The notes under the pieces: model-generated
The model's input: the letters and a program-made list of their open reading frames with translations, nothing else
Told to the model about the DNA's origin: nothing
Databases searched by the model: none
Translations under genes and position numbers: made by a program
Shown: positions 1,451 through 33,248 of the stretch, piece by piece
Position numbering within the stretch: position 1 is the stretch's first letter
How the letters are laid out: every line of letters begins with the position of its first letter
Origin: the human T2T-CHM13v2.0 reference genome, Homo sapiens
Strand: one strand, 5' to 3'
Length of the DNA stretch: 64,000 nucleotides
Assembly: GCF_009914755.1 (NCBI RefSeq)
Contig: NC_060935.1

Positions 1451-1717
<267 letters not shown>

Positions 1718-1843
1718 TTAACAGATTTAATACTTTTCATCAACAGACCAATTCCATCACCACAGCTGGCACCCCCTTGCCTGTCCACCGCTACAAAGAC
1801 AGTCGCCACCTCTGCTTAGAGCCCCAAGATGATCATCAGGAGT

Positions 1844-2174
1844 CAGGCCCGTGGTACCCCAACCCTGGCCCTGGACATTCCCTGGAACCACGCCTCCAAG
1901 CCAGCATCCAGGCCCGTGGTACCTCAACTCTGGCCCTGGACGTCCCCCAGAACCACGCCTCCAAGCCAGCATCCAGGCCCGTGGTACCCCAACCCTGGCC
2001 CTGGACGTCCCCCGGAACCATGCCTCCAAGCCAGCATCCAGGCCCGTGGTACCCCAACCCTGGCCCTGGACATTCCCGGGAACCACGCCTCCAAGCCAGC
2101 ATCCAGGCCCGTGGTACCCCAACCCTGGCCCTGGACGTCCCCCGGAACCACGCCTCCAAGCCAGCATCCAGGCC
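1844..2174. repeat. 65-bp VNTR, 5 copies
   Basis: GGCCCGTGGTACC recurs at 1846, 1911, 1976, 2041 and 2106 (exact 65-bp period). Confidence 0.95.
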
Positions 2175-2878
2175 ACACCTACTGACGTAAAGCCCACGGC
2201 GCTTCAGCAACTCGCACAGCACAGACAAATCTCAATCTTGCAGCCAGGCCCTTGGAGGCTGGCATTAGAAGAGGCCCAGAGTGTCCACGCAGGAGTCCAC
2301 GAAGGAGCCCACGACAGCCCTAGACTCTGAACTTCGAGCGCAGATCAATCCCAAATGCCTCTGCCTCTGGTGTCTGTGTGGCTGCTCTTTCGAGAAACTG
2401 TTCTAGGGTTTCGGAGAGACCCACGAAGACTCCATGAGTCATATGCGCAGACACCTCAAGAATGGGTGTCCACAGACGGAGCGGGCCTTCTTCCTTGGAG
2501 GCAGCGGCTGAAACGGAACGTGCCTTGGCGGCCCCACGGGCTAAACGGATCCCGGGGCGCTGCAGTCCAGACCCAAGCACAGCCCCTGGGGAGAGCATCC
2601 CCTGGCCGGCTGCAGAAAACTGCTTCCGGATCTGCTACATTCTTCCTGTACCCTTCATCCTGGCTCCGGCCGCCTTCCTTCAGGCTCCTTGGCACAGCCG
2701 CTCAGCACAACACAGCCCACCCCCATCCCCTCCTGGACCCCCCGGGGTGGTGGCTCCTGCCCTTCTCACGGTGCCTCCTCCACCTCCTCCCAAGCTGCCT
2801 GCCACAAAGTACTAAATGGATAAAAGAGAAGCTAAGAGGAAAAAACTTTCAAGGACCATAATAAAAATCCAAAAACTC

Positions 2879-3306
2879 GTGTGTGTGTGTGTGGTGTGTG
2901 TGTGTATACGTGTGTGTGGTATGTGTGTGTGGTGTGTGTGGTGTATGTGTGTGGTGTGTGCGTGTGTGGTGTGTGTGTGTGGTGTACATGTGTATATGTG
3001 TGTGTGGTGTGTGTGGGTGTGTGTGTGGTGTGTGTGGTTGTGTGTGTGGGGTGAGTGTGTGTGGTGTGTATGGTGTGTGTGTGGTGTGGGGGGGTGCGTG
3101 GGTGTGTGTGTGGTATGTGTGGGGGGTGGGTGTGTGTGTGGGTGTGTGGTGATGTGTGGTTGTGTGGGGGTGGGTGTGTGTGGGTGCGTGTGTGTGGTTG
3201 TGTGTGTGTGGTGTGTGTGTGTGGGTGTGTGGTGATGTGTGGTTGTGTGGGGGTGTGTGTGTCTGTGTGTGTGTGTGTGGTGTGTGTGTGTGGGTGTGTG
3301 TGCGTG
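2879..3306. repeat. Long degenerate (GT)n/(GTG) microsatellite
   Basis: ~430 bp composed almost entirely of G and T. Confidence 0.95.
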
Positions 3307-3736
3307 TTCTCACCACAGGATGATTTTCCTGTTTTCGCCCACTGATGCCCTCTGAAGGTGAGATCAAAATCAGTGGCTATCACAGTTTCAAAGATCCCCT
3401 GTTACAGAAATCAGCCTGACTCAGTCCTCCACCAGCCAAAACACAGAACCATCCGCTGGCAGGCCCTAGAAAGGCACCCGACTTCAGACATCTGTCCATA
3501 TTACAAATATTTGTTGACTGCCTCCAACGTGCCAGCCGAGGAGAAGAGCTGCACACCAGCAGAAAAGGTCCCTCTGCCCTCCCACAGCTTAGACCGGGCT
3601 AACAAGCAACGCAGGAGCAGTGCTCTGGTGCAGGAAGGGGAGAAGCCGAGGGGACCTCTCAGGAGACAGGGAAGCCAGGAGAAGGAGCAACCATGGGAAG
3701 AGCAGGCAAGAGCTGGAGGCAGGAAGGGCAGGAGGA

Positions 3737-4040
3737 TGGGGTCAAGGGCAGGAAGCTGGGGTCAAGGGCAGGAGGCTGGGGGTCAAGGGCAGGTGTCTGG
3801 GGTCAAGGGCAGGTGGCTGGGGTCAAGGGCAGGGTGGCTGGGGGTCAAGGACAGGCTGTTGGGGGGGGGTCAGTGGCGGGACAGCTAAGGTCAAGAGCAG
3901 GCCAGCGGGGTCAAGGGCAGGGTGTCGGGTCAAAAGCAGGTGTCTGGGGTCAAAGGCAGGGTAGCTGGGGTCAAGGGTAGGGTGTCTAGGGTCAAGCGCA
4001 GGTGGCTGGGGTCGACAGGGTGTCTGGGTTCAAGGACAGG
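3737..4040. repeat. ~20-21-bp G-rich minisatellite (GGGGTCAAGGGCAGG...), ~14 copies
   Basis: Repeated GGGGTCAAGGGCA cores, e.g. near 3738, 3758, 3780, 3799, 3819, 3907. Confidence 0.9.
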
Positions 4041-4640
4041 GGGCCTAGTTTGGAGAGGAAGGCAGAGGCAGCCGGTGGGAGGTGGCAGGGTTTTGTGCTA
4101 GCAATGGAGAAGCATCCAAGGGCCCAGAGAAAGGGGAACCTGCCACTGTTTCTTTTCTAAAGACCACTCTGGCTGCTGTATGGAGTATGGATGGGGATGG
4201 GGAAGCAGGACCAGTTAAGAAGCTGAGGCTGTCTTCCAGGAAGGTGCATGGGCCTGGCCCACTCTGTCAGTGACAGGGACAGTGACAGTGTGGACAATGA
4301 CCCACACAAGACAGTCTGCAGAGGCACCTTGAGCTGCACTTGCTGGTGAAATGGGCCCTCGGGCTCCTGTCTTGAGCCACCCACTCAGTGAAGCCAGGTA
4401 CTGACAAGGGACAGTCTCAGGGAGGGAAGGAGGCAGGCTGGGGCAGAAGCTGAGAATTCATGCCTGGACCTGCCACATGTGAAATGTCACCAGGACATCC
4501 GGGTGGAGATGCCCCACATCGCCAGAGCAAGGGAGGAGCTGGGCAAGACGACACACCCGGGAGGTATCAGCACAGAACCTGCCAGCTCTGCCTCAATGAC
4601 TCGGAAAGAGTAATTTGGCAAAACTACATTCCACCAGCTA

Positions 4641-5499
<859 letters not shown>

Positions 5500-6097
5500 T
5501 AACTCTTAGCCCCCTTCCCCATCAAAGCCTTCGCAGTAACCATGAGGAAGGCATCCCAGAAGAGGACTCTGCAAAGCATGCACGGTGGCAAATAAAGTGA
5601 CGTGACTGGCTACCTCTGCACGATTGATAAGATCTCCTGGGCTTCATACAGAACACAAAGGCATTATTCATGGCAGTGGATTAAATATAGCGTCTGTAGC
5701 CAAGTCCCTCCAAAGTTATGTATCCAACACTTGCTCAGAAATCTAACCTCTGATAGGAAGAGTCAGACTGGAGGTAATTATAGTGTCCTTTCTAGGAGTG
5801 AAACGCCCTCGCAGAGCGATCTGAGTTTAATGAAGGACTTGTTTATTTGGACTGGTTCAGGGTAACCCTAAGAGTTCTAAATGCCCCTAAGGTGCACAAT
5901 TTGTTTTTCTACTTCTGCAGGAGCTGAGATGGGCTGTCCTGACCTAGCCTCTCCCTCTTTGAGCCATGAGCAGAAATGAGTGAATCCAACAAGGGCCAGA
6001 GGAGCTCCCTGTGCAAATGTAATGAGCGCAAATCCCACCCTGGGTTCTGGCCTGGATCAGTGGCCTTATGCTTAAAAACACTGATATAGCCGCACCT

Positions 6098-7981
<1,884 letters not shown>

Positions 7982-8029
7982 AAGTGTAAGACTGCCTCCT
8001 GTGGCCAATAGGGAGTGCAGATCTAAACC

Positions 8030-10600
<2,571 letters not shown>

Positions 10601-10685
10601 CTCATTCAAAACAACTGTTACCTCATGGCATTAAGGAATTTCTGTGAATTATCTTTTAGGTATTACAAGATATTGTGGTTATGTT

Positions 10686-11195
<510 letters not shown>

Positions 11196-12226
11196 TAATT
11201 TTATCTTTTATCATATCTGGGACTTGCTTCAAAATCACTTGGGGTGGGAAAAATGGAGGGACGGGTAGGAAGGAGCCATGTGTGAGAACGGGTGAAGGGC
11301 AGGGCTGTGCAAGCCCGGTAGGTAAGTGTCTCTTCTACGCACATTTGAGATCTCCTGATGTTTTAGAATGTGTTGAATGAAATGAAACATTCATCTGCTG
11401 CAATTGGAGCTCAAAAATCTCATGTTTGGAGAGCTCCTCAGATACTCCAAGTGCCCCAGGTGCCCACCTCCCAGGAAGGGAAGCACACACTTCTCACCCC
11501 ATAGCCCACCCAATACAACAGGGCTGGCAGCAGAGAAACGGCGTAACCCATCCGGAGCCAGGGAAGATAAAACCAGGAGGAGCAAAGGTTTCCGGGGCCA
11601 GAGCATGTGGAAAGTTGGCCATGCCCAAGCCCCCTTACCCCGTCCCCACTACCCACAATCTGGAAATACCTGAACAGTCACCACCTGCTTGCCCAACCCA
11701 ACAGGATTTTTATGACCCTGGTGTAAAAAGGATGAGAAAGGAAAAGCAGGGCCTCCCCCCAGTGCCCGCCTCCCCGAGTGCCCGCCTCCCTCCAGTGCCT
11801 GCCCCCCACCTCACCCAGCCAGCCTCTTCCAGGTGCTTCCTCTTCAGGCAGGAGGCCACACTCCTGGCCCACGCAGGGACTTCACCTCTCCCCAGAAGGG
11901 GGCACACCTGCTCCCTGCCTTTCACCCAGCTGGGAGTGGATGCAGAGTGGCAGCTTCTCCCACCTCTGAGTCACCGGAAACAAAGCCGGGGGACTGCAGA
12001 AGACACGGGCACCATGGCTTCACAGAGGCCAACCCACCCCAGTGAGTGCCACCCAGCTCCTGGGCCAGCCTCACTCACTCCAGACACAGGGCAGAGGGTT
12101 CCTAATGTCTCTAAAACCGAGGAACTCATAAGAATGGTAACCAGATAAAGCCATTCGCACCACACCCGCCTTCCCTCCCTGGCCCTGGAGAGTAGAGGGC
12201 CCCAGACCAGAGTCTGAGAGTGGTCA

Positions 12227-12902
<676 letters not shown>

Positions 12903-13180
12903 TTAGCACAAACGGGATTCCTCAAAGTAAATCGGGTCTGCGGCCTCACCACACTGGCATAAACAGGACTGGGACTACAGGTGGCTAACCTCACCTTCCT
13001 GGAAACAGACAGCAGCCAGGTGAGGCAGGTGAGCAGCTGAGACTGGGATGGGCAGACGACAAGCCCAGGGCCAAGGGCGCAAAGCTCTTCCAAGGACCTG
13101 GTGCTTAGGGAGGAGGAGTGGGGGTGAGGTGGGGTGTCCAGGTGGAAGAACGCCAGTCACTAATAAATTCCTGGACCTCA

Positions 13181-13780
<600 letters not shown>

Positions 13781-16109
13781 TGCAAAAATTTCTAAGATGC
13801 AATAGATACAACCTCCTCTCCCTGTCCCCAGAATGCGGGGCTCATCTTTCCCTACGTATTTGAGTATCTACAAGTGCATACAGTGCCACCACACACGTGC
13901 GAGGCACACACAAATGCTGCCTACTCTGTGCGCGGTCCTGCAACTTGCTTCTCGTCCACATTGAGTTCCAAGCTGCCCCACGCCCACCTACACAGCCCTG
14001 GCCCTGCTGTCCTGCACCCCCCTGCTGGCAGGAACCAGTCTGCTCTTGTGTCCCTGCTGGGGCTCAGGGAACTTCTCTGTTCACTTTTTCACTGTTGCAA
14101 ACAAAGAAGCAGACAGTGGCCTTGTCCATGTTGCAGCATCGTATTTTAATGGGAGTAGAAAAAGAGCATAGTGTTCGTGGGCACCCCTGGCCTCTGGGGC
14201 AGACTTCCTTATGCCTGCCCTGCCCTGCCTGCTCTACCAAAGTTCCAGCTCCTTCTTGATGTGGTCATCCTGCCCTCTTTGCCCTTGCTGAAGTCCCACC
14301 AGCTGCTCGACACCCCATCTCCCTGTGTCTCCCAAGTCAGCTTTCCCAAGGCGTCTGAGTGCCCTGCCCACCTCGCCATCGCTGCCACATCGGCCCCAGC
14401 CAGGGGCTTCTTGGAGAGGGGGGCATACTCCACCACTTTGCAGCCTGTGTTCCTTCCGCTTCTGTGTGTCCAGAATGGGCCACCTGTCCGCTACAGCCAG
14501 GCCTGGGTCAGGGCCCCCCCCACCTCCCACCTGCGTGGGAGTCCCTCACCAGGCTCACTGCGTCTTCCCCTCCCCAGCACCTTTCATCGAGGGCAGGAGG
14601 CCAGGGCACCCATATGTTACAACTCCCCTTCCCGGAAGCCTTCCCTGGGGTCTTGGGCACACCCTGCCAGACTGGGCACTGTGGCTGGGAGCCCCAGCAC
14701 GCTGGGAGAAGGGCCCTTAGGCCAGCTGGCAGCCAGGCCTGCGTCTGGATCCAGGCCACCAACACTGGGCAGCCTCTTTGCTCACCCCTTCAGCCTTCCT
14801 GAGGCTGTAGTGAGGAGGGTGGCAGGGGCATGGCATGGCCTGAGGCTTGGGCAAGCAGGCGTCCGCCTCCTCTGGCTGGTGGGGGCTCTGCCACATCCCA
14901 CTCACGGTGTACAACTAAACCGTTAGTCTCTGTGGGCCAGCCCCACTTCCCGTTCCTTCTTCCTCCTGGGGGAGGCCACCAGGCACGCAAGCTGGCCCCG
15001 GTCCATCTGCTGCTGCCTTGGGCCCCTCTGGCTTCTGAACTAGTAGGTGGCTCCCCCTGCACCCTGGGAGTCAGCCAGCCCCCCAGGACTTTAGCTTCAA
15101 CCTGAGCACACTGCACCTGACCTTCCAAGCACGTCTTCACCCAGCCAAAACTTCACCAGCTGACAATGAATCTCACCACCTGTCCACGTGCCCGCATCCT
15201 CCCCAGGGTTTCTCTTACTGAGAACACCGGCACCTGCCCTGCCTGGGAAGAAGCAGGGATGGACTAGGGGTGTTCACTCCAGTCCCCAGAACCTGCTGAT
15301 GTGAAGGTCCCCGGGCCGCGTGTCCCACCAGCAACACGTCCGCTCTACAGCCCAGCCTTCCTTTCTCCAAGCCACCCCCATACAGAGACTTCCCAGAGAG
15401 ACCTGCCCAACGGCTCTTTAATCCACGTCACCCCAGGGGCCGGCCTATCTGCAGCCCCTCTCCTTCTGTGATTTTCTTCCATGCCCAGGTATCGGAGACA
15501 TATCACAGCCCTGGTGGGAAAAGGTGGTGTCCCGGGGGACAAAGTTTACACAGCGTGACCATTGGGATCCAAGCTGCACGGCAGGGCGTGCACCTGTGCC
15601 CCAAGTTCAAGGATGGCTAGAGGAGAGAACGCTTTTACTGGAAAGGCAGAAAAGAGGAGGAAGAAAAGTTAAAAGGAAGAAATGAGAAAATACAGAAAAA
15701 TACAGATGGATGAAAAGGGAACTTAACCTCTCCCCTGTCACTCACTCGTTCTCACAAATCATCGCGGAGCCCTCGGACGGGAATCCCGAACTAGCCCTGG
15801 GAATGGACTCGTGGAGGAGGCAGCTCTGGGTAAGTAAAACAGGAGGACCCTTGGGTGCTGTTCCTGACCTAAGACCCCTCCTTGCTGTGTGCCCCTGGGC
15901 CAGCTATGGAGTAAATCGGAGGTGGCGGCAACACCCCGGCGGCCTCCACCACACCAAAAACAACACATCGTCTGGCATTGTCATGGGGCCGCGGATGTGT
16001 CTATTTTCACTGAAAGTACAGAAATCACTTCTGAGAAGCTGGCATGGTGGCTGGGGCCTGGCCTGTACCTCTGCCCCAAGTGGACACGAGCCCTGAAAGG
16101 CTGAGTGGG

Positions 16110-16405
16110 AGGCCAGGTGCAGTGGCTCACACCTGAAATCCCAGCACTTTGGGAGGGCAAGATGGGAAGATTGCTTGAGTCCAGGAGTTCAAGACCAGCC
16201 TGGCCAACGTGGCAAAACTCCTTCTCTGCCAAAAATACAAAAAATTAGCTGGATGTGGTGGCGCACACCGGTGGTCCTAGCCATTCTGGTGGCTGAGGTG
16301 GGAAGATTTCTTGTGTCTGGGAGGTCGAGGCTGCAGCAAGCCCGGACTGTGCCACTGCACTCCAGCCTGGGCAACAGAGTGAGACCCTGTCTCAAAAAAA
16401 ATAAA
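16110..16405 (+). mobile_element. AluJ-like element
   Basis: Alu consensus with TSD GAAAGGCTGAGTGGG. Confidence 0.88.
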
Positions 16406-17440
16406 AGAAAGGCTGAGTGGGGTTGGGGGATTGGGGGTGGAGATCGCCCACCTGGAGCCCACCTGCTGGGAGCTCACACAGACCTCCTTGCCCGGAGCAC
16501 ACGGGGTGCCCACCAACTCCCAGGTGGAGCATGGGAGCCAGGCCACATGCCATCCTGGAGGCTATGATGGGACTCATCACTGAGGTCTGTGCCATAGCAC
16601 TTAAGCACCTTATGCTAATCTGCTCTCGGAACCACACAGAGATGCAGAATAAGAGGCCCCAGCCAAGGCTGCAACCCCTTCATCACAATTGTCACAAATC
16701 CGCTGTCCCGTCTCCAGCTCACCTATTCCATGGTTGTTCCTACCACCTTCCAAGCTCAGCTCTCCCTGTCACCTGCCCCTCCGCCAGGCCCACCAGCCTT
16801 GACCTATGCCACTAACTGGCTCGCAGCTGGGAAGTCTTCAGCTCTTTTTCCATTTCTGTTTTCTCCTTTCTTCATACTTAGCTTAAAGCTCCCAGCACTT
16901 TAGGGGGCAGCCCACGAATCCAAACTCCCCAAGAAATTCTACAAGAGACATTTAGCAATGTCACCTGCACCAGCTGGCAAATGACCTTCACTTGTGAGTT
17001 ATGTGTCCAGTCTTCCAAATACACTTCTCAAGGACATGAATCCTTGTGTCATCCGAATTGAATCCTGAAGACTATGGACAGTTCTCCAACGCTGAATGCT
17101 ACATCAACAATCGTGGGGGGGAAGGTGATAACACATCTTCAATTTTGCTTACGATTAACTTCATTTTAACAACTTTGCTCAATATCCCCCAAATCCTTGG
17201 CCAATAAACTGCTCTGGTACTTTGTTTTTTGAAAGTGTTCACTTTGTTCCCTTTCTCCATAATCAATTCCTTTTAACCAAAACCTTTCACCTCTTTCGAA
17301 GTCATTGGCCTATGAATCCTAACACTGGCCACGTAATCAAGAAGACACTCAACACAGGTCCCTATGCCCTTTGAGCAAACCTCCCCACTCCTGCACCCCC
17401 AGTCCTGCAGAGCTGAGACAGGCAGGTGGCTGAGGAAAGC

Positions 17441-17453
17441 AGGTGAAAGGTCA
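17441..17453 (+). promoter_or_regulatory. Second intronic DR1 (AGGTGA-A-AGGTCA)
   Basis: DR1 with one mismatch and AAGC 5' flank, in unique sequence; motif match only. Confidence 0.4.
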
Positions 17454-17709
17454 GCTTGATGCACCGTGCATTGCCAGGTTTCAAAACACGCCCAAGGAAA
17501 ATGGAGATATGGGACTTGCCTCTGTAATATAAAACAAACAATAAAACTTGATACGTGACAACGGACTTCCAAGAAAATGGTCTTTATAGCAACTGAAATA
17601 TGTAAATAATTTCTGAGTGGGGCAGAAGTCTTTCAACACAGCCTTGCAATCAACACGTATGGAGATACTAATAGATAGGTGTGTGGGAAGGTAGGTAGGT
17701 AAGACATAA

Positions 17710-18670
<961 letters not shown>

Positions 18671-19591
18671 CTACTTAGGATTCCTAAAGTTACAACACAG
18701 ATATAAAATTAGGTCACTGTTGTAACCAAAATGATGAGATTGCAGCCAGCAATAAAACTCCAGTAAGTATAAACACCATCAGTGCCAACTGTAAAATTAT
18801 TCACATGCTGCAGTCTTCCCACTAGCATTGCACAGTGCCCATGCACACAGGAGCAGGCTCTGCTTTCTATTCAAACCTAGCTAACAGCTGCCCATCTCCT
18901 CCAGCGGTAAACAACTATGTTGGAAATCCTCTGAGAAAATGTTACCCATGGGAAGCGACAGCTTAGCTCAGCAGGAATACCAGGCAGGGCCTCTAGGAAC
19001 AGAGAAAGTGTGAGGCTGGATGACATGGGCCTCATCCCTGGAAAAACTGGAGAAGGCGCTGTAGGCAGGGTCAGAAGCAGTGTCTCTGGCGAAGGGCAGG
19101 GCAGTTATCTCATCATCTACAACACATTCTTGGATGCCCGGGTGACCAATGCCTGGGAAGATTCTGCTTCGCTAGAAAGCTAGTGCCAGCCTCCGGGACT
19201 GGCTCCAGCTCGGGGAAACCACCTTCACAACATGCATGATTTCCAAGGTGGCAAAAATCTGGCCTGGCCTCCTCACTGCTGCCCAAAGAACTTCAAGGGA
19301 AGTACCAGGAAGGCTCTGGAAGGACAGCAGCAGCCCAGGGGGTTCCCTAGAACTAGCACACATGTGCAGTAAAGTTCATGGCTCTTCTGAACTGAGATGC
19401 AGGCAAAAATTAGCAATAATGGGAAGGAAGAAAAGCAGCAGCTCCTCTTCTCCAGGCAAGTGTGGGTGTGCGCTCTCTGCACTGTATGAGCCACATCGTT
19501 ATTCAATTGCAGATATGCACATCTGTAATGGTGCCCTTGTACTTTTCCAGTAAATGTGTATACACACAAACAGAAGTTGTTTCCCAAACTT

Positions 19592-21130
<1,539 letters not shown>

Positions 21131-22181
21131 TAAGCCAATTCAAATTTAGACCTTATAGTGCACCACGTCAATAAGTAATGGTTAGATAAATACAGACAAA
21201 TATGATCTTAGAAAAAAAATTTGGAAAAGCCACAAAGATTCACAATTTTATAAAGAAGATAGCCAACGTATTGACAGACCCAGTTATCTGACCTAGCTAT
21301 TCAGAAGCCCACCAGAAGTTTAACAGCTGCTACTTCTTTCCCACTGTGCCTGCCCTGCCTCTAGCCAGCATCGGCACTCGGGCACGAGCTCAGACTGCAA
21401 GGAGGAGACCTGCACCTGCCCAAAGGACATCCTAAACCTCCTCTTCGTACCAGTATATTGTTCCCACAAATGTCCCTAAGACAACAGGAGCGGTGTCCCC
21501 TGTATCTCCCATGCATATTCTTCACCTTTGCACAGAATATAACAACTTGAACTTCTAATTCAAACTGAACTTGAACTGAACTTCTAATGTGGGGACTGCA
21601 AAATACATTGGTGTCCCTAAATGCCGCCTGCAGCCAGGACATTGTTTGCTAGAGCCTGTATTTACTTTACACACTCAAAACTCTCTTCACATCTGACCTC
21701 TGATTGGATCCTCACAAAACTCGTGTGACATGGAATGACAGGTTCAGACCCACCACCTTACAGATGAGGAAATGGAAACCCAGAAACCCTAGAGGCGGAT
21801 TCAGTGCCACACCCAGTCTGCATGGGGTAGGGAGTGGGGGCCTCCAAAACCCAGGCCCTCTGGCTGCCCAGTGGTCTGGGAAGCAGCCTGGGAAAGGGAA
21901 AGAAAACACACAGATCTGGGTTCAAATCCCAGCTCTACCAATTACTCAGACCTGTGACCTTGAGCAAGTATTTGCCTCACATAAAGTATGCAGGACGCCC
22001 TTACCTCCTCCGGCAAACTGCAGGAGGACGTGGCAGCCAGCTCTGACACCTGTTAGGTCTTTACTGCAGGAACACGTTCTTTGTCCCTTTCCAACTGTAG
22101 CCCTGTGGTGCCAATGCAAACCCTCTAGGAATGTGGATTTCTCTTCCTACCTGTTGCACCCCCACCCCATGCCAAATCTCA

Positions 22182-24985
<2,804 letters not shown>

Positions 24986-25495
24986 CCCATCTGTGCCTCT
25001 TTAACTTTGCATCGTATGCTTATATCGCTTATTTGTAAAAACAAAACAAAACAAAAGTCTTCACAAGAAAAGCTCAAGACTGGCAGAAGACAAGTGAGGC
25101 CTCTTTAAAGTGTGTTGGAGAGATTCTCGAGAGATTCTCTCCAACACACTTTAAACAAACAATCTCGAACAGCCATTTTAATTCTTAAAGCACCAATTCT
25201 TCCGGAATTCAAGTTCAGGCTTCCACCAGCAACAGAATTCTGGCCTGCCAATAATAACCATGCAGAGTGACTAAACATTTTTTCCAACAAAGGAAAAAAT
25301 GCAAACGATCAAAGTGCAGAAGCAGCCCTTGGCCCGCGCAGGCTCCGGTTTCCGCCTCCCGCCGCCGCTGCCACCGCCCCTGCGCCTTTAGATTTCGGGC
25401 AGCAAGTTTAATTGCTCGCTTGGAAAGCGTCCTCGGAAGGGCACCGCCAGCAACTGCGGCTTCGCGCCCCGCCCCTTCCCCCAAGCCCCGGGCGG

Positions 25496-25507
25496 CGTCA
25501 CGTGACG
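25496..25507. promoter_or_regulatory. Palindromic E-box CGTCACGTGACG (USF/TFEB CLEAR-type, with CRE half-sites)
   Basis: Perfect 12-bp palindrome containing GTCACGTGAC. Confidence 0.6.
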
Positions 25508-25515
25508 GCTGAGAA

Positions 25516-25532
25516 AAGTAGGGGAAAGGTCA
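25516..25532 (+). promoter_or_regulatory. PPAR response element (DR1) AAGT-AGGGGA-A-AGGTCA
   Basis: DR1 with A-rich 5' extension typical of PPAR/RXR sites. Fatty-acid/PPARalpha induction of CPT1A through an intronic element is established; that this is the same site is inference. Confidence 0.75.
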
Positions 25533-25671
25533 GCAGCAGCCCCGCCCCCAGGCTGGCGCGTCCCAGGCGCTCGGATCCTGTTCCACCCGCCGTGCCCACA
25601 GAGACCTTCCGGAGCGAGTTGGCGCGCGTCCCTGTGGCCACCCCAGCGACAGCGGGAGAAATGCAACGCAC

Positions 25672-25802
25672 CTCTCCGTGGGAAGGTCGAGCCCTGCGGT
25701 GCCCAGCTGTGGGGACAGCTCGGTGCTCAGTGCTTCTGATGACAGATGCTGCATCCAACGAGCCAGAAACGCAGGCACCGCGCTCAAGAGCCCAGGGCGC
25801 GT
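25672..25802 (-). other. CPT1A: Candidate alternative 5' exon ('1b') with ATG in frame with CPT1A
   Basis: Donor GAG|GTGCGT (GT at 25671-25670); possible acceptor CCCCTTTTAG|AC at 25803-25804; ATG at 25754 is 83+13=96 nt upstream of the main ATG with no stop; lies in a CpG-rich patch. Confidence 0.55.
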
Positions 25803-27283
25803 CTAAAAGGGGCTCACTGTGAAGCCTCAGTGAAAACTGACGGTGTTTTTATGAATGAGCACTCGGGGCCAGGGTTGGGTAAGGGCAGGCCCTCGTTCCA
25901 GGGCTCCCCGGAGGCCCAACTTGACCGCTCGGTGACCACTGGTCCGGGGCCGGGGCCAAACGCAGCAGCCGCAGCAGTATCGGAAGGGACCCAGTTTAAT
26001 TCTCTTCCCCTCCAGGGTAGGCGGCTTGTTTTTAGTACCAACTCGAAACGTTATTTTGGCCTGTGCATGATGCCAACTTCTGCCACTTTGAAACAAAGTG
26101 TGTGCACTCCCAAACCTGGCCCTTTTTATTGTTTGATTCCAACTGTTAAGATAGGGTTCAAGTGCAAGGTCTAGGCTAGCAATGCTTCACAGGAAGGAAA
26201 CCAGTAATTTACATGCGAAAAGCAGTCCACAGGCTCTTGGTATTGAGGCAAAACCAATCCAAAGAACCAGCTGCGAATGCTGATAGTCCCCAGACCAACT
26301 GACAGCTGGATGTTCGCTGGCCTCAGCGGTGTGCATTCTCAGCGACACTTATGTCCTCAATTTATTGCTACGTTCACTCGGTCAGAGTCGCCTTAAAGAA
26401 TTTGGAAAGGCCCGGGGGTGGGGGTGCTTCCTGGCATAAATAGAAGACCAGTGCTCAGCCATTTTTTATTCACTTGGTTTGTGGCTTAGAATGAAATAAA
26501 CATGCTTGCATATCTGGAATGACCAGAAACCGGACACCTGTGGAAGAAAATGGTGTAACAAAATACAACGTTGCAAAAGGTAAAACCGATTTTCATTTTA
26601 TTCGGTAACTTACAAAGTTACCAGCTTCCTACTAAAATCTGCCCTTAAATATTTTATAACACACGGAGCCGAGAGGAACCGAAAGCCTGTGCCGAGTTGG
26701 GAATATTAACTTTGTTATGTATTTAACCTGGTAGGTAGTTGGGATTTTTAACTCTCTGAGTTGTTTTCTTTTTTTAAAGTAAGATCGGCCCTCATCTTTG
26801 AGTTCTGCGGCTTTAACGAAAGCCAAGGGCGGATTTACATTATAAAGACGCTGACCCATGGCCTCTCCTGACAAACCGAAAGAAGCCGGCTGTTGGCTGG
26901 CCGCGGCGGTGGCTCCGAGAAGGGGCTGCCCCGCGTGGCCCTGACCGCACCGTCGGGCTCGCAGGCCAAGTTCGCCAGGGCACGGCCACGTGACACCCCC
27001 ACCCTCCCGCGGCCCCGCCGCTCCCAGCCCGGCACGACCTTGGGCACATGCTCCGCGCCCACCCGCCCTTGACCCAGCGCTGCACGGGAGAGGCTGCGGG
27101 GCGCTCCCAAGCAGGCACTGGGCCCGGCACCCTCATCCTGCTCACGGCAGCGCTCGGACCGCGCCTGGAGTCCCTGCGCCAAGGGCGTGTCCCGACGGCT
27201 GCACCGCGAGGGCGGGCATGGGGAGGGGGACCGGGGAGACGGACGCTGGGATGGGGTCAGCGGCGCCCTGCCGAATCCCGAGG

Positions 27284-27680
27284 GCCGAGCACCCCTCCCT
27301 CAGCCGCACTGCACCTGCCCGTAGGTGACCAACCCACGGGCGGACCCCCAGACCCAATCCTCTCCAGAGCCAGGGTGGGATGGGCAGGGACAGGAGCCGG
27401 AGGCCCTACTGGCCCCGGGCGAAGGCATCCTGGAAAGCATCCAGAGCGTCCAGCATCCCTCCCGCGGCCACCCGCAGGCTGACCGACCCCTGGGCAGACC
27501 CTCAGACTCAATCCAGTCCAGGGCGGATTAAGGAGTGGGAGACAAGGGAGCCGGTGGCCCCGCTGGCCCCGGGCCGGAGGCGTCCAGCCAAGTCCGGAGG
27601 GCCGAGCATCCCTCCCGCGGCCGCACGGGACCCGCCTGCGGATGGACCGACCCCCGGTGGACCCTCAGACCCAATCCCCT
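27284..27680. repeat. Degenerate ~155-160-bp triplication inside the CpG island
   Basis: GACCC(C/T)CAGAC(C/T)CAATCC at ~27343, ~27497 and ~27660; AGCATCCCTCCCGCGGCC at ~27452 and ~27606. Confidence 0.75.
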
Positions 27681-27894
27681 GGGGAACATGGGGAGCCCCG
27701 GCCTCTTTCTGGGTTCAGGATCTCCACAACCCCGCCGTCCGGGGGGAATACCGGGGTTCCTCTCGGCGCCCCGGTTCCGGCGGCGTCCCCCACCCGGTCC
27801 GGTTCCCGGCAGCCCCGCGCCCCGCCCGTCCCCGGCCCCCGCAGCCCGCAGGGCCGCCCCGCCACCCTCCCCACCGCGGGCGACCGGGCCTCAC

Positions 27895-28036
27895 CGAGTC
27901 AGCTACGGAGGTGCGGCAGCGGCAGCGGCAGCGGCGGCGGCGGCGGCGGCGGTGGAGTGAACGAGCGGCGAGCGGGAGCCGGGGAAGGAGGGCCGCGGGC
28001 GAGGCCGAGCGCACCCGACGCCGGCAGCAGCGGATT
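27895..28036 (-). other. CPT1A: CPT1A non-coding exon 1 (5' end approximate)
   Basis: GC-rich, ATG-free segment in the CpG island ending GCTGACTCG|GTGAGG; contains a GCC repeat. An in-frame TAG lies upstream of the CPT1A ATG after splicing. Confidence 0.85.
27913..27951 (-). repeat. (GCC)7-(GCTGCC)3-type repeat in the 5'UTR
   Basis: Plus strand reads (GCGGCA)3(GCG)7. Confidence 0.9.
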
Positions 28037-28457
28037 GGCTGAGGCGGGTCCGGCTGCGGCGCCTGCAGGCGGGTGACTCCCGGCGCGCGGAGGGCGGGCC
28101 CGGGGCCTCGGCGGGGCGGGGCGTCCGCGGGGCTAGGAGGGGAGGGAAACTGAGGCTCGAGCGGGTGCTCGCGTCCTCGACCTCTGCCGGAATGGGGTCT
28201 AGGACGAGATTCCTCACCCTCCGAGCCTCAGTTTCCTCATCCGTAAAACGAGCCATCTCGTGGAGGCCGTGCGCATAAAATCGCTTAGCTCCGTGCCTGG
28301 CTGATCCTCGCGACTTATCTATCGGCATTGCCCCGTGTAATGCTCCAGGCACCCCCTGATGGTATTCACCCCTGACTCTTTCATGCAGACAAGGGTCGCG
28401 GGCCAGGAAATAAGTTACCCCACATCACCGAGCTGAGAAGCAACCGATCCACAGGGA

Positions 28458-28570
28458 GTGGTGGGGCGCGCCTGTAATCCCAGCTACTCGGGAGGCGGGA
28501 AGTCGCTTGAAGCCAGGAGTTCGAGGCCAGCCTGGGCAACGTAGCGAGACCCCGTCTCTAAAAAAAAAAG
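28458..28570 (+). mobile_element. Alu monomer (FLAM/FAM-like)
   Basis: GCGCGCCTGTAATCCCAGCTACTCGGGAGG...CAGCCTGGGCAAC...poly(A). Confidence 0.75.
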
Positions 28571-29599
28571 CGCGGGGAAGTGATAGATCGGACATTGGGT
28601 CCAGATCTGATTCCACAGCCCATGCCCCAAATCAGACCTTATACCACGAGTGGCAGTCATCGCGATCCAGAGGCAGCGTGGCTCCTCCTCATCTAGCTAG
28701 GATAAAAATGCCTCACTTGGGGGGCTTTGGTGAGATTTACTAAAATAATTCTTCCAGCGTCAAGAACATAATAGGTGCTGGGAGAGGAGTAGCTAGAGGC
28801 CAGGGCAGAGCGACCGAGAGACCCTTGTGCTGGAGCTCGGGAGAGGGGCCGGGAGCGGGAACTGAACATCCACCGGTCCCAGGAGTCTAGGGCGAGCGCA
28901 GCTGCAGGGGACCCAGGGGGTTGAGGGGGAGGGAGAGGGGCCCCAAGCGTAACAGGAGGGCCAAGGGGGTCTTCCTGACCGGGAGCCACCCCTCCCCTAT
29001 CTTTGCCCGCAATGCTTCCAGGCGCGAGCTGGCGGCTCTGCATACAGCAGGTGCTCCATAAATGCACCGATGTTATGAACAAAGACTCTTTTAAACCTCT
29101 TTTATGAACCCTGCTCTTTTTAAGTTCGACCACTTCTTCTAGTTATGAAAAAATCCATGTTTGCAACCATCCTTCTTTCTGTATCATTTAGTTGTTACCG
29201 CAGAAGAATTTAGAAGAGAAAATGAAAGTTCTCCTTTGATCCCGCCCCCCACCACCGCTGCAGTTAACTCTCCCTGCGGTTCCCGGGCTCGCTGTTTTAA
29301 AGGAAGGCTAGGATGCAAGCTGTCTGTAAGGCTGTTTTGTTTTCACTTGGCTTACGTCGTAGACAGGTCTCTGCTGGGGGACGGAGATGACCACCGGCCT
29401 TCCCAAGGCTGCATAAGATTTCCTTTGACTATGCTGTGATCCATTTACGCGGCCCCCATTGGACAATTAGGGCCTCCTCCCCGCCCCCCACCCCACCATT
29501 GCAGGTATAAATAAAAGCTGCGTTGGCCGTCGATGTACCTCCTGGAGCTCCTGATTATCCTGTAGGATAGATCCCTGGAGGGGAAGCAACCAGGCACGT

Positions 29600-30480
29600 G
29601 CGACATTTTGGTGACACAGGCCAAGCTACCATGCCGAAAAGTTTACCAACTTCCACTGCCACCCGCGCGTGCAAGCGGGGCCCTGTCTCCGATTATGGAT
29701 TATTTTAATCTTTGCCAATCCTAAAAGGAGGGGTGGGGGAGGGAAGAATCTCTCATCTCTCCTTTTAATTTGCATTTCTTTGAGGTTAGAAGTTGGGGGT
29801 TTGTCCCCCTGCTTGCGCTTGTCTGGACCACCAGTGAGCCCAGGCACTCGACCCCCGCAGATTTCACCGCCCCAAGAGGCCAGTGGGCTGGGCCAGGGCA
29901 CACGTTCCTGACGCGCGGCTGCACCCCACGAGCCCGGGCGGCTCTCGCGCGTGAGGCTCTCCTTGCACGTGGGCCTTCGCGGTTTGCACTACGGAAGCTG
30001 GACTGTCATTCTCACCGCAAATGCCCTTCCCTCCTTTCCCTGGAACCTCAGCCACCGACAGGTCCCCGCTCCAAGGTCATTTCCTCCCTCGCTCAGCGCC
30101 CCGGTGCGCGCCCAGCTGGGATTGGCCCCGCGCCCTGTCTGTTCCCAGGGCTCTTCGGCCTTGACCGTGCGCCCTTCCCTGCGCGCCGCCTAGGTGCCAC
30201 CTGCAGGCCGGGCGGGGCAGGGACAGGGACCCAGTCTGTGGGGACGCCGAGGCGCCACGCTCACCTGTGCCATGGTGGCCGGGCTCTCGGCAGCTGCAAC
30301 GAGCCCGCGCCGGCCTGCAACTGCAGCCGCACTGGGGAGGCCTTATTCCCCTCCCGCCGACCACGCTGCAGCTCTCCTGCCCGGGTCTGCGGCTCCCGCG
30401 GCTGCGTAGCTGAGTCTATTAATAAAGAAGCAGAGAACGAGGCCTCCCGGGGAGCTCCGGGCCTGAGCCTCAGTTCCCTG
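29600..30480. promoter_or_regulatory. Upstream CpG island (alternative promoter candidate)
   Basis: CpG-dense, GC-rich, non-repeat block ~2 kb upstream of exon 1. Confidence 0.7.
30265..30400 (-). other. CPT1A: Candidate upstream alternative first exon of CPT1A (5' end approximate)
   Basis: Consensus donor CAG|GTGAGC (GT at 30264-30263) preceded by GCCACCATGG, inside a separate CpG island. Confidence 0.6.
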
Positions 30481-30719
30481 GGGCCAAAAACGTCTCCATG
30501 TCTGCCTCTGAAACTAGAGTAATCTTTCTCAAGCCTTGTTTTTTACAGATTCTGCCCCAGTTTGAATACTGTAGCAATTGCCTACCATAGCTACAAGAAA
30601 AATTTTCTTTTTAATGCAGGTAATGTTTTTATTTACCGCTAAGATTTCTCTTTTTACTCAAAAAATACTTTTTTATGGAAAAATCCAAACCTTTTTATTC
30701 ATTCGTTCATTCATTCATT

Positions 30720-33248
<2,529 letters not shown>

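What the first reader, a model, noticed from the sequence alone, without database searches (positions are those of the whole stretch)
25672..30280. Possible splicing-controlled translational switch: one perfect-Kozak ATG is either a repressive uORF or the start of a +51-aa CPT1A
Seen: the upstream CpG island reads (minus strand) GCCACC ATG GCA CAG|GTGAGC, a textbook Kozak ATG 9 nt before a consensus donor. A 131-nt candidate exon (25802-25672; CCCCTTTTAG|...GAG|GTGCGT) is stop-free in one frame. The sum 9+131+13 (exon 2 UTR) = 153 nt = 51 codons, so the three-exon junction reads [56 protein letters not shown]..., in frame with CPT1A. Skipping the middle exon puts the same ATG out of frame. Established: the cytosolic CPT1A N-terminus (e.g. 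Glu3) governs malonyl-CoA sensitivity. Inference: the first 25 added residues lack acidic residues and are Arg/Leu/Ala/Ser-rich, like a targeting presequence, so localisation or regulation could change. Frame agreement has a 1-in-3 chance probability and the acceptor's pyrimidine tract is short.
Basis: partly seen in the sequence, partly recalled or inferred. Interest (0 to 1): 0.82.

Follow-up and report, generated by a model that had tools for sequence, protein, structure and literature searches.

The report
Upstream ATG in alternative CPT1A leader
The strong upstream ATG in an alternative first exon of human CPT1A is most likely the start of an ordinary short upstream reading frame, and the proposed 131-base exon that would fuse it to the enzyme looks like a chance construct.

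Summary
The letters and the arithmetic are right. GCCACCATGG lies 9 nt before a GTGAGC donor in the annotated exon 30265-30397. With 25802-25672 and 13 nt of exon 2 it gives 153 nt, 51 codons open into the CPT1A Met.

The middle exon is not supported:
- Its donor is the annotated end of an 866-nt RefSeq exon (25672-26537), which starts at a much better acceptor.
- No exon listed for the 10 RefSeq transcripts starts at 25802.
- The proposed acceptor AG is the last two bases of the in-frame TAG that closes the CPT1A frame, so the exon is stop-free by construction.
- It scores 1.66 bits on a crude matrix, against 6.3-17.4 for all 5 annotated acceptors in the window. 498 of 2034 intronic AGs score as well or better.
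- At its own splice scores, 5 of 71 candidate exons in the same intron are also in frame and stop-free.
- The "presequence-like" composition occurs in 104 of 655 GC-matched open windows.

With either downstream exon it could join, this ATG opens a 26-codon upstream ORF. RNA-seq, Ribo-seq and primate alignments could not be consulted. Interest is low.

The parts
30265..30397 (-). Annotated alternative first exon of CPT1A (133 nt), upstream of the canonical promoter
   Evidence: Hub annotation table. Sequence read. It holds a single ATG. GC is 0.729.
30270..30279 (-). GCCACCATGG: upstream ATG (30273-30271) in full Kozak context, 9 nt before the donor
   Evidence: It is the only match in the window; 0.45 are expected by chance.
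30259..30264 (-). Donor GTGAGC of the alternative first exon
   Evidence: It scores 10.93 bits on the crude matrix, the best donor scored.
25672..26537 (-). Annotated 866-nt internal exon of other RefSeq transcripts. It shares its donor with the proposed exon and starts at the acceptor TTTTCTTCCACAG|G.
   Evidence: Hub table. The acceptor scores 10.42 bits with an AG-free zone of 73 nt. With it the leader holds 9 uATGs after the upstream first exon, or 8 after the canonical one.
25672..25802 (-). Proposed 131-nt exon. Its 3' end is a real annotated donor; its 5' end is unannotated.
   Evidence: The acceptor scores 1.66 bits, and 498 of 2034 intronic AGs score at least as high. 2 of 3 frames are open.
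25803..25805 (-). TAG: the in-frame stop that bounds the CPT1A-frame open stretch. Its AG is the proposed acceptor.
25752..25754 (-). ATG in frame with CPT1A and open to it (+32 codons) inside the annotated 866-nt exon. Weak context CGTTGG|ATGC.
1539..1610 (-). Exon-2 part of the 26-codon overlapping uORF. It passes the CPT1A ATG (1597-1595) out of frame and stops at TGA 1541-1539, 82 nt before the exon-2 donor.
27895..28036 (-). Canonical exon 1 of NM_001876.4. It has no ATG, and the CPT1A frame is closed by a TAG with 7 codons between it and the start.

Best explanation
The ATG at 30273 starts a short upstream ORF on the minor CPT1A transcripts that begin at the upstream promoter (5' end 30397). 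It does not start a longer enzyme.

Shown from sequence and annotation: spliced to exon 2, the ATG opens a 26-codon ORF. That ORF runs out of frame across the CPT1A start codon and ends 59 nt beyond it. Spliced to the annotated 866-nt exon, the ATG opens a different 26-codon ORF, followed by eight more upstream ATGs.

Inferred from the scanning model of initiation: the ATG is the first one in the leader and has purine at -3 and G at +4. Most scanning ribosomes should therefore start there. In the exon 1'-exon 2 form they pass the CPT1A ATG while elongating and cannot reinitiate at it. CPT1A would then be made only by leaky scanning. Termination 82 nt upstream of the exon 2/3 junction could also expose the mRNA to nonsense-mediated decay.

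The canonical leader has no ATG and escapes all of this.

The 131-nt exon is a chance construct that uses a real donor and a stop codon's AG.
For: - The ATG, its context and the donor are in the sequence.
- The two 26-codon uORFs and their stops are computed from the possible joins of the annotated exons.
- The canonical exon 1 has 0 ATGs. This agrees with Table 1 of PMC3178533 (passages seen), which lists NM_001876 with 0 uORFs.
- The donor at 25672 belongs to an annotated 866-nt exon with a good acceptor (hub table).
- The proposed acceptor scores 1.66 bits, against 6.31-17.43 for all 5 annotated acceptors in the window. Its nearest upstream AG is at -12, against -35 to -73 for the others.
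- The acceptor AG is the end of the in-frame TAG.
- 5 of 71 comparable candidate exons in the intron are also in frame and open.
- A search of 5.8 billion proteins with the 43 exon-encoded residues gave 1 hit among 68 candidates. It is a 189-residue ORF call that reads straight through the donor into the intron, not a spliced CPT1A.
Against: - No transcript, ribosome or peptide data could be consulted, so use of the upstream promoter, of the uATG and of the junctions is not shown.
- The hub table does not say which exon 30265 is joined to.
- My splice matrix is built from recalled approximate frequencies and is crude. It gives the constitutive exon-2 donor (AAG|GTTTTC) only 0.17 bits, so a low score does not exclude a real site.
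- The proposed acceptor does have 8 pyrimidines directly before the AG and a plausible branch site (TTCAC) about 18 nt upstream.
- The donor it would pair with is really used.
- The protein database may hold few spliced eukaryotic proteins, so the empty result is weak.
Confidence: 0.72

Rival explanations
1. A cassette exon 25802-25672 is included in some upstream-promoter transcripts. The ATG at 30273 then starts a CPT1A with 51 extra N-terminal residues, which could change targeting or malonyl-CoA sensitivity. Skipping the exon makes the same ATG a repressive uORF.
For: - The frame arithmetic holds and the join is open.
- The donor is annotated (hub table).
- The ATG context is optimal.
- The first 25 residues carry 2 Arg and no acidic residue, with a hydrophobic moment of 0.416.
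- The N-terminal 1-42 is a regulatory domain.
Against: - The acceptor is not in the RefSeq exon list, is weak (1.66 bits, 75th percentile of all intronic AGs) and has upstream AGs at -12 and -16.
- Openness comes by construction from the TAG.
- 5 of 71 comparable exons pass the same test.
- 16% of GC-matched control windows have the same composition.
- The exon-encoded peptide is in 0 papers of the library.
- No spliced protein carrying it was found.
Confidence: 0.04
2. An N-terminally extended CPT1A (+32 residues) is made from the annotated 866-nt-exon transcripts. It would start at the in-frame ATG 25754-25752, and no new splice site is needed.
For: The ATG is in frame and open into CPT1A on annotated exons.
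Against: - The context is weak (T at -3, C at +4).
- It is preceded by 7 or 8 other ATGs in a leader of about 1 kb, two of them in strong context when the upstream first exon is used.
- No protein with this N-terminus joined to CPT1A was found.
Confidence: 0.05
3. The upstream-promoter transcripts are rare by-products of a nearby CpG-rich enhancer or promoter. Their uATG has no measurable effect on CPT1A output.
For: - The selected RefSeq transcript starts at 28036.
- RefSeq marks enhancers at 29678-29817 and 29858-30067, next to the upstream exon (hub table).
- A Kozak match is expected by chance 0.45 times per window.
Against: - The exon is annotated and has the best donor scored (10.93 bits).
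- A TATA-like TATTAA lies 22-27 nt upstream of its 5' end.
Confidence: 0.19

Closest known systems
Repressive uORF in the 5' leader of the paralogue CPT1C (Lohse et al. 2011, PMC3178533; passages seen)
   Same: An upstream ATG in the leader of a CPT1-family mRNA would lower translation of the main ORF.
   Different: The CPT1C uORF was tested with reporters and lies in the main transcript. Here the uATG lies only in an alternative first exon, overlaps the main start out of frame in one splice form, and is untested. That paper lists the canonical CPT1A leader with 0 uORFs.
Alternative 5' non-coding exons that change translation efficiency (SHBG exons 1A/1B PMC2973947, PPARdelta PMC2045109, NOD2 PMC2228316; seen only as titles and abstract starts in the listing)
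   Same: Promoter or 5'-exon choice decides whether the leader carries upstream ATGs, while the protein stays the same.
   Different: No expression or reporter data exist here. The comparison is by kind only.
N-terminal extensions that add a mitochondrial targeting signal through alternative initiation (the screens of Kazak et al. and Ly et al., as described in the review PMC13656305; passages seen)
   Different: CPT1A is already an outer-membrane protein with a cytosolic N-terminus. The extension needs an unannotated exon. Its composition is not distinctive. The review's CPT1A passages concern a different matter, overlap of gene lists.

Membership tests
Upstream ORF (uORF / overlapping uORF) of an mRNA leader | ATG upstream of the main start codon, inside annotated exons of the same gene and strand | tested here: met
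   The ATG 30273-30271 is in annotated exon 30265-30397 (hub table).
Upstream ORF (uORF / overlapping uORF) of an mRNA leader | An in-frame stop makes it a separate ORF from the main CDS | tested here: met
   It is 26 codons with either possible downstream exon. The stop is at 1541-1539, or 807 nt before the main ATG.
Upstream ORF (uORF / overlapping uORF) of an mRNA leader | Ribosomes initiate there and main-ORF output falls | not testable with these tools
   No Ribo-seq or reporter data. A strong context is the only indication.
Cassette (alternatively included) exon | Functional 3' splice site: AG preceded by a pyrimidine tract and an AG-free zone back to the branch point | tested here: inconclusive
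   The score is 1.66 bits, against 6.31-17.43 for 5 annotated acceptors. 14 of 20 bases are pyrimidines, and the nearest upstream AG is at -12. The matrix is crude and recalled; MaxEnt and SpliceAI were not available.
Cassette (alternatively included) exon | Functional 5' splice site | tested here: met
   GAG|GTGCGT is the annotated end of the RefSeq exon 25672-26537. It scores 8.17 bits, and 17 of 1579 intronic GTs score as high.
Cassette (alternatively included) exon | Both junctions seen in transcripts or annotation | tested here: not met
   The hub table of exons of all 10 RefSeq transcripts lists 25672-26537 but no exon starting at 25802. RNA-seq could not be consulted.
Cassette (alternatively included) exon | Frame and splice sites conserved in related species | not testable with these tools
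   No primate or other mammalian genomes are held.
Mitochondrial matrix-targeting presequence | Positively charged N-terminal amphipathic helix free of acidic residues | tested here: inconclusive
   The first 25 residues have 2 R/K and 0 D/E, with two prolines. The maximum hydrophobic moment is 0.416. 104 of 655 GC-matched open control windows also have no D/E and at least 2 R/K. TargetP and MitoFates were not available.

The most novel reading that the evidence does not exclude
A rare, perhaps tissue- or state-specific, CPT1A mRNA from the upstream promoter uses the weak acceptor at 25803 (or the nested one at 25749, which is also in frame). The strong ATG at 30273 then yields a CPT1A whose regulatory N-terminus is buried behind 51 (or 33) extra residues. 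This would change malonyl-CoA sensitivity or membrane insertion. Exon skipping turns the same ATG into a repressor of the normal enzyme.
Probability: 0.04. Interest if true: 0.6.

Novelty: new member of a known kind. Interest (0 to 1): 0.15.

Why it matters
CPT1A sets the rate of mitochondrial long-chain fatty-acid oxidation, and its first 42-47 residues set its sensitivity to malonyl-CoA. An isoform with a masked N-terminus would therefore be a real regulatory novelty, but the evidence here does not support one.

What remains is modest. Transcripts from the upstream promoter probably make little CPT1A protein per mRNA, because a strong upstream ATG captures the ribosomes. That matters mainly for reading expression data: mRNA counted from this promoter may not mean enzyme. 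It also matters for interpreting variants that create or destroy this ATG.

Tried and rejected
- The search for homologous proteins with the 43 exon-encoded residues, longer proteins only, gave 1 hit among 68 candidates. It is a 189-residue ORF call that reads through the donor into the intron, so it says nothing about splicing.
- Literature, all 10 searches used. These were CPT1A with uORF (27 papers, 15 listed), alternative first exon (3), alternative promoter (45, 20 listed), N-terminal extension (10, 9 listed), upstream open reading frame plus ribosome profiling (15, 12 listed) and translation initiation site (20, 15 listed). By title and abstract start, none of the listed papers deals with a CPT1A uORF or an extended CPT1A. 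The unlisted ones were not seen.
- The peptide search found 0 papers. Supplementary tables, where MS peptides and Ribo-seq ORF lists usually sit, are not covered by that search.
- Searches were badly framed: min_terms let the CPT1A term drop out. They returned nothing on CPT1A.
- Rfam found no family in 24000-31500.
- I did not fold or dock anything. The extended protein is a spliced product and not a letter-for-letter reading of the window, and a structure would not decide whether the exon is used.
- I considered whether the 131 nt is coding-like from openness alone and rejected it, because 2 of its 3 frames are open.
Full report
**What is in the sequence**

Read on the minus strand, the annotated alternative first exon of CPT1A (30397..30265, 133 nt) ends with GCCACC ATG GCA CAG, followed by the donor GTGAGC. 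The ATG (30273-30271) is the only one in that exon.

The stretch 25802..25672 is 131 nt, preceded by CCCCTTTTAG and followed by GTGCGT. Exon 2 (1610..1457) has 13 nt before the CPT1A ATG at 1597-1595.

Joining the three by coordinates gives 153 nt, which is 51 codons without a stop running into the CPT1A start. Leaving the middle piece out gives a 26-codon ORF in another frame. That ORF crosses the CPT1A ATG and stops at TGA 1541-1539.

The coding part of exon 2 matches residues 1-42 of the solved CPT1A regulatory domain, PDB 2le3 (E 1.5e-24). Passages of the review PMC10076611 describe residues 1-47 as the regulatory region, with two conformations that set malonyl-CoA sensitivity. The premise about the N-terminus is therefore sound.

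**What the annotation adds**

The donor after 25672 is real. It is the 3' end of a RefSeq exon, 25672-26537 (hub table). On the minus strand that exon starts after TTTTCTTCCACAG, so it is an internal 866-nt exon with a good acceptor.

No exon in the table of all 10 RefSeq transcripts starts at 25802. If the upstream first exon is joined to this 866-nt exon, the ATG at 30273 opens a different 26-codon ORF. Eight further ATGs follow in a leader of 1012 nt. The canonical exon 1 (28036..27895) has no ATG. This agrees with Table 1 of PMC3178533, which lists NM_001876 with 0 uORFs (passages seen).

**Why the 131-nt exon is probably a construct**

1. Reading upstream from the real donor in the CPT1A frame, the first stop is TAG at 25805-25803, and its AG is the proposed acceptor. 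Any open stretch bounded by TAG offers such an "acceptor". An exon cut there is stop-free and in the CPT1A frame by construction. Only the 9 nt in exon 1 had to agree, which is a 1-in-3 event.
2. 2 of the 3 frames of the 131 nt are open, as expected at 65% GC.
3. I scored splice sites with a position matrix written from recalled, approximate human frequencies. It is not MaxEntScan.
   - The proposed acceptor scores 1.66 bits. 498 of the 2034 AGs in the intron 30264..1611 score at least as high.
   - The five annotated acceptors in the window score 17.43, 10.42, 6.31, 11.81 and 7.09. Their nearest upstream AG lies 35 to 73 nt away, against 12 nt for the proposed site.
4. At the candidate's own thresholds the intron holds 71 AG...GT candidate exons of 40-300 nt.
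   - 31 are frame-compatible and 5 are also stop-free. These include the candidate, a nested one (25748-25672) and 10161-10019, which scores better at both ends.
   - With the donor threshold lowered to 6 bits the count is 20 of 410.

The matrix has clear limits. It gives the constitutive exon-2 donor only 0.17 bits, so a low score alone cannot exclude a site. The proposed acceptor also has eight pyrimidines right before the AG.

**The presequence argument**

The first 25 residues of the extension have 2 Arg/Lys, no Asp/Glu and two prolines. The best 18-residue hydrophobic moment is 0.416.

As a control I took all non-overlapping stop-free 25-codon windows of similar GC (0.58-0.72), in all six frames of this 64-kb window. 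104 of 655 (16%) also lack acidic residues and have at least two basic ones. The composition is what GC-rich non-coding DNA gives when translated.

**Searches for the product**

- The 43 exon-encoded residues (P0001) were searched against 5.8 billion predicted proteins, longer proteins only. The search gave one hit among 68 candidates.
- That hit is a 189-residue ORF call that starts at the internal ATG and reads through the donor into the intron. It is not a spliced CPT1A.
- The database may hold few spliced eukaryotic proteins, so this result is weak.
- The tryptic peptide of the extension occurs in 0 papers of the library. Supplements are not covered by that search.
- Six CPT1A literature searches listed no paper that, by title or abstract start, treats a CPT1A uORF, an alternative CPT1A leader or an extended CPT1A.
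- Two further searches were badly framed and returned nothing on CPT1A.

**How it most likely works**

Shown: whichever of the two downstream exons it is joined to, the first ATG of upstream-promoter transcripts has purine at -3 and G at +4 and opens a 26-codon ORF that is not CPT1A.

Inferred from the scanning model:
- Most ribosomes start at this ATG.
- In the exon 1'-exon 2 form they translate across the CPT1A ATG, which lies 22 nt downstream, and terminate 59 nt past it. They cannot reinitiate at the CPT1A ATG, so CPT1A comes only from leaky scanning.
- The stop lies 82 nt upstream of the exon 2/3 junction, so nonsense-mediated decay is possible.
- In the 866-nt-exon form, nine upstream ATGs make the leader a poor template.
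- The canonical leader has no ATG and an in-frame TAG close to the start, so it is unaffected.

The outcome is that promoter choice, not a cassette exon, decides whether the leader is repressive. This is an ordinary arrangement, and untested here.

**What could not be done**

The tools hold no human RNA-seq, CAGE, Ribo-seq or proteome data and no primate genomes. SpliceAI, MaxEnt, TargetP and MitoFates were not available. My verdict rests on annotation, sequence logic and chance controls.

**Verdict**

The +51-residue isoform is unsupported; I put it at about 4%.

Noticed in passing
window 25752-25754 (-), within annotated exon 25672-26537: An ATG in frame with CPT1A and open to it would add 32 codons on already annotated transcripts. 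Its context is weak, and it is preceded by 7 or 8 other ATGs in a leader of about 1 kb.
   Followed up: partly
window 30265-30397 plus 1598-1610 (-): The exon 1'-exon 2 leader has no stop in the CPT1A frame over all 48 codons. The canonical leader is closed by a TAG with 7 codons between it and the start. Only one in-frame near-cognate codon (AAG) has purine at -3 and G at +4.
   Followed up: partly
window 27913-27952: There is a GCG/GCC trinucleotide array in the canonical 5' UTR exon: period 3, 13.3 copies, 83% matches.
   Followed up: no
window 30419-30424 (-): A TATA-like TATTAA lies 22-27 nt upstream of the annotated 5' end (30397) of the alternative first exon. This fits a real start site.
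   Followed up: no
window 10019-10161 (-): A 143-nt AG...GT stretch in intron 1 would also join the upstream ATG to CPT1A in frame without a stop. It serves as a chance example and is not annotated.
   Followed up: no
protein P0002; corresponds to window 25754 downward (-): The large protein database holds a 189-residue bacterial-style ORF call on a 147-Mb contig. It reads from the internal ATG through the splice donor into the intron. This is an artefact of ORF calling on eukaryotic DNA.
   Followed up: yes
window 1451-1459 (-): The constitutive donor of CPT1A exon 2 is AAG|GTTTTC. It is far from consensus at +3 to +6 and scores 0.17 bits on my matrix.
   Followed up: no
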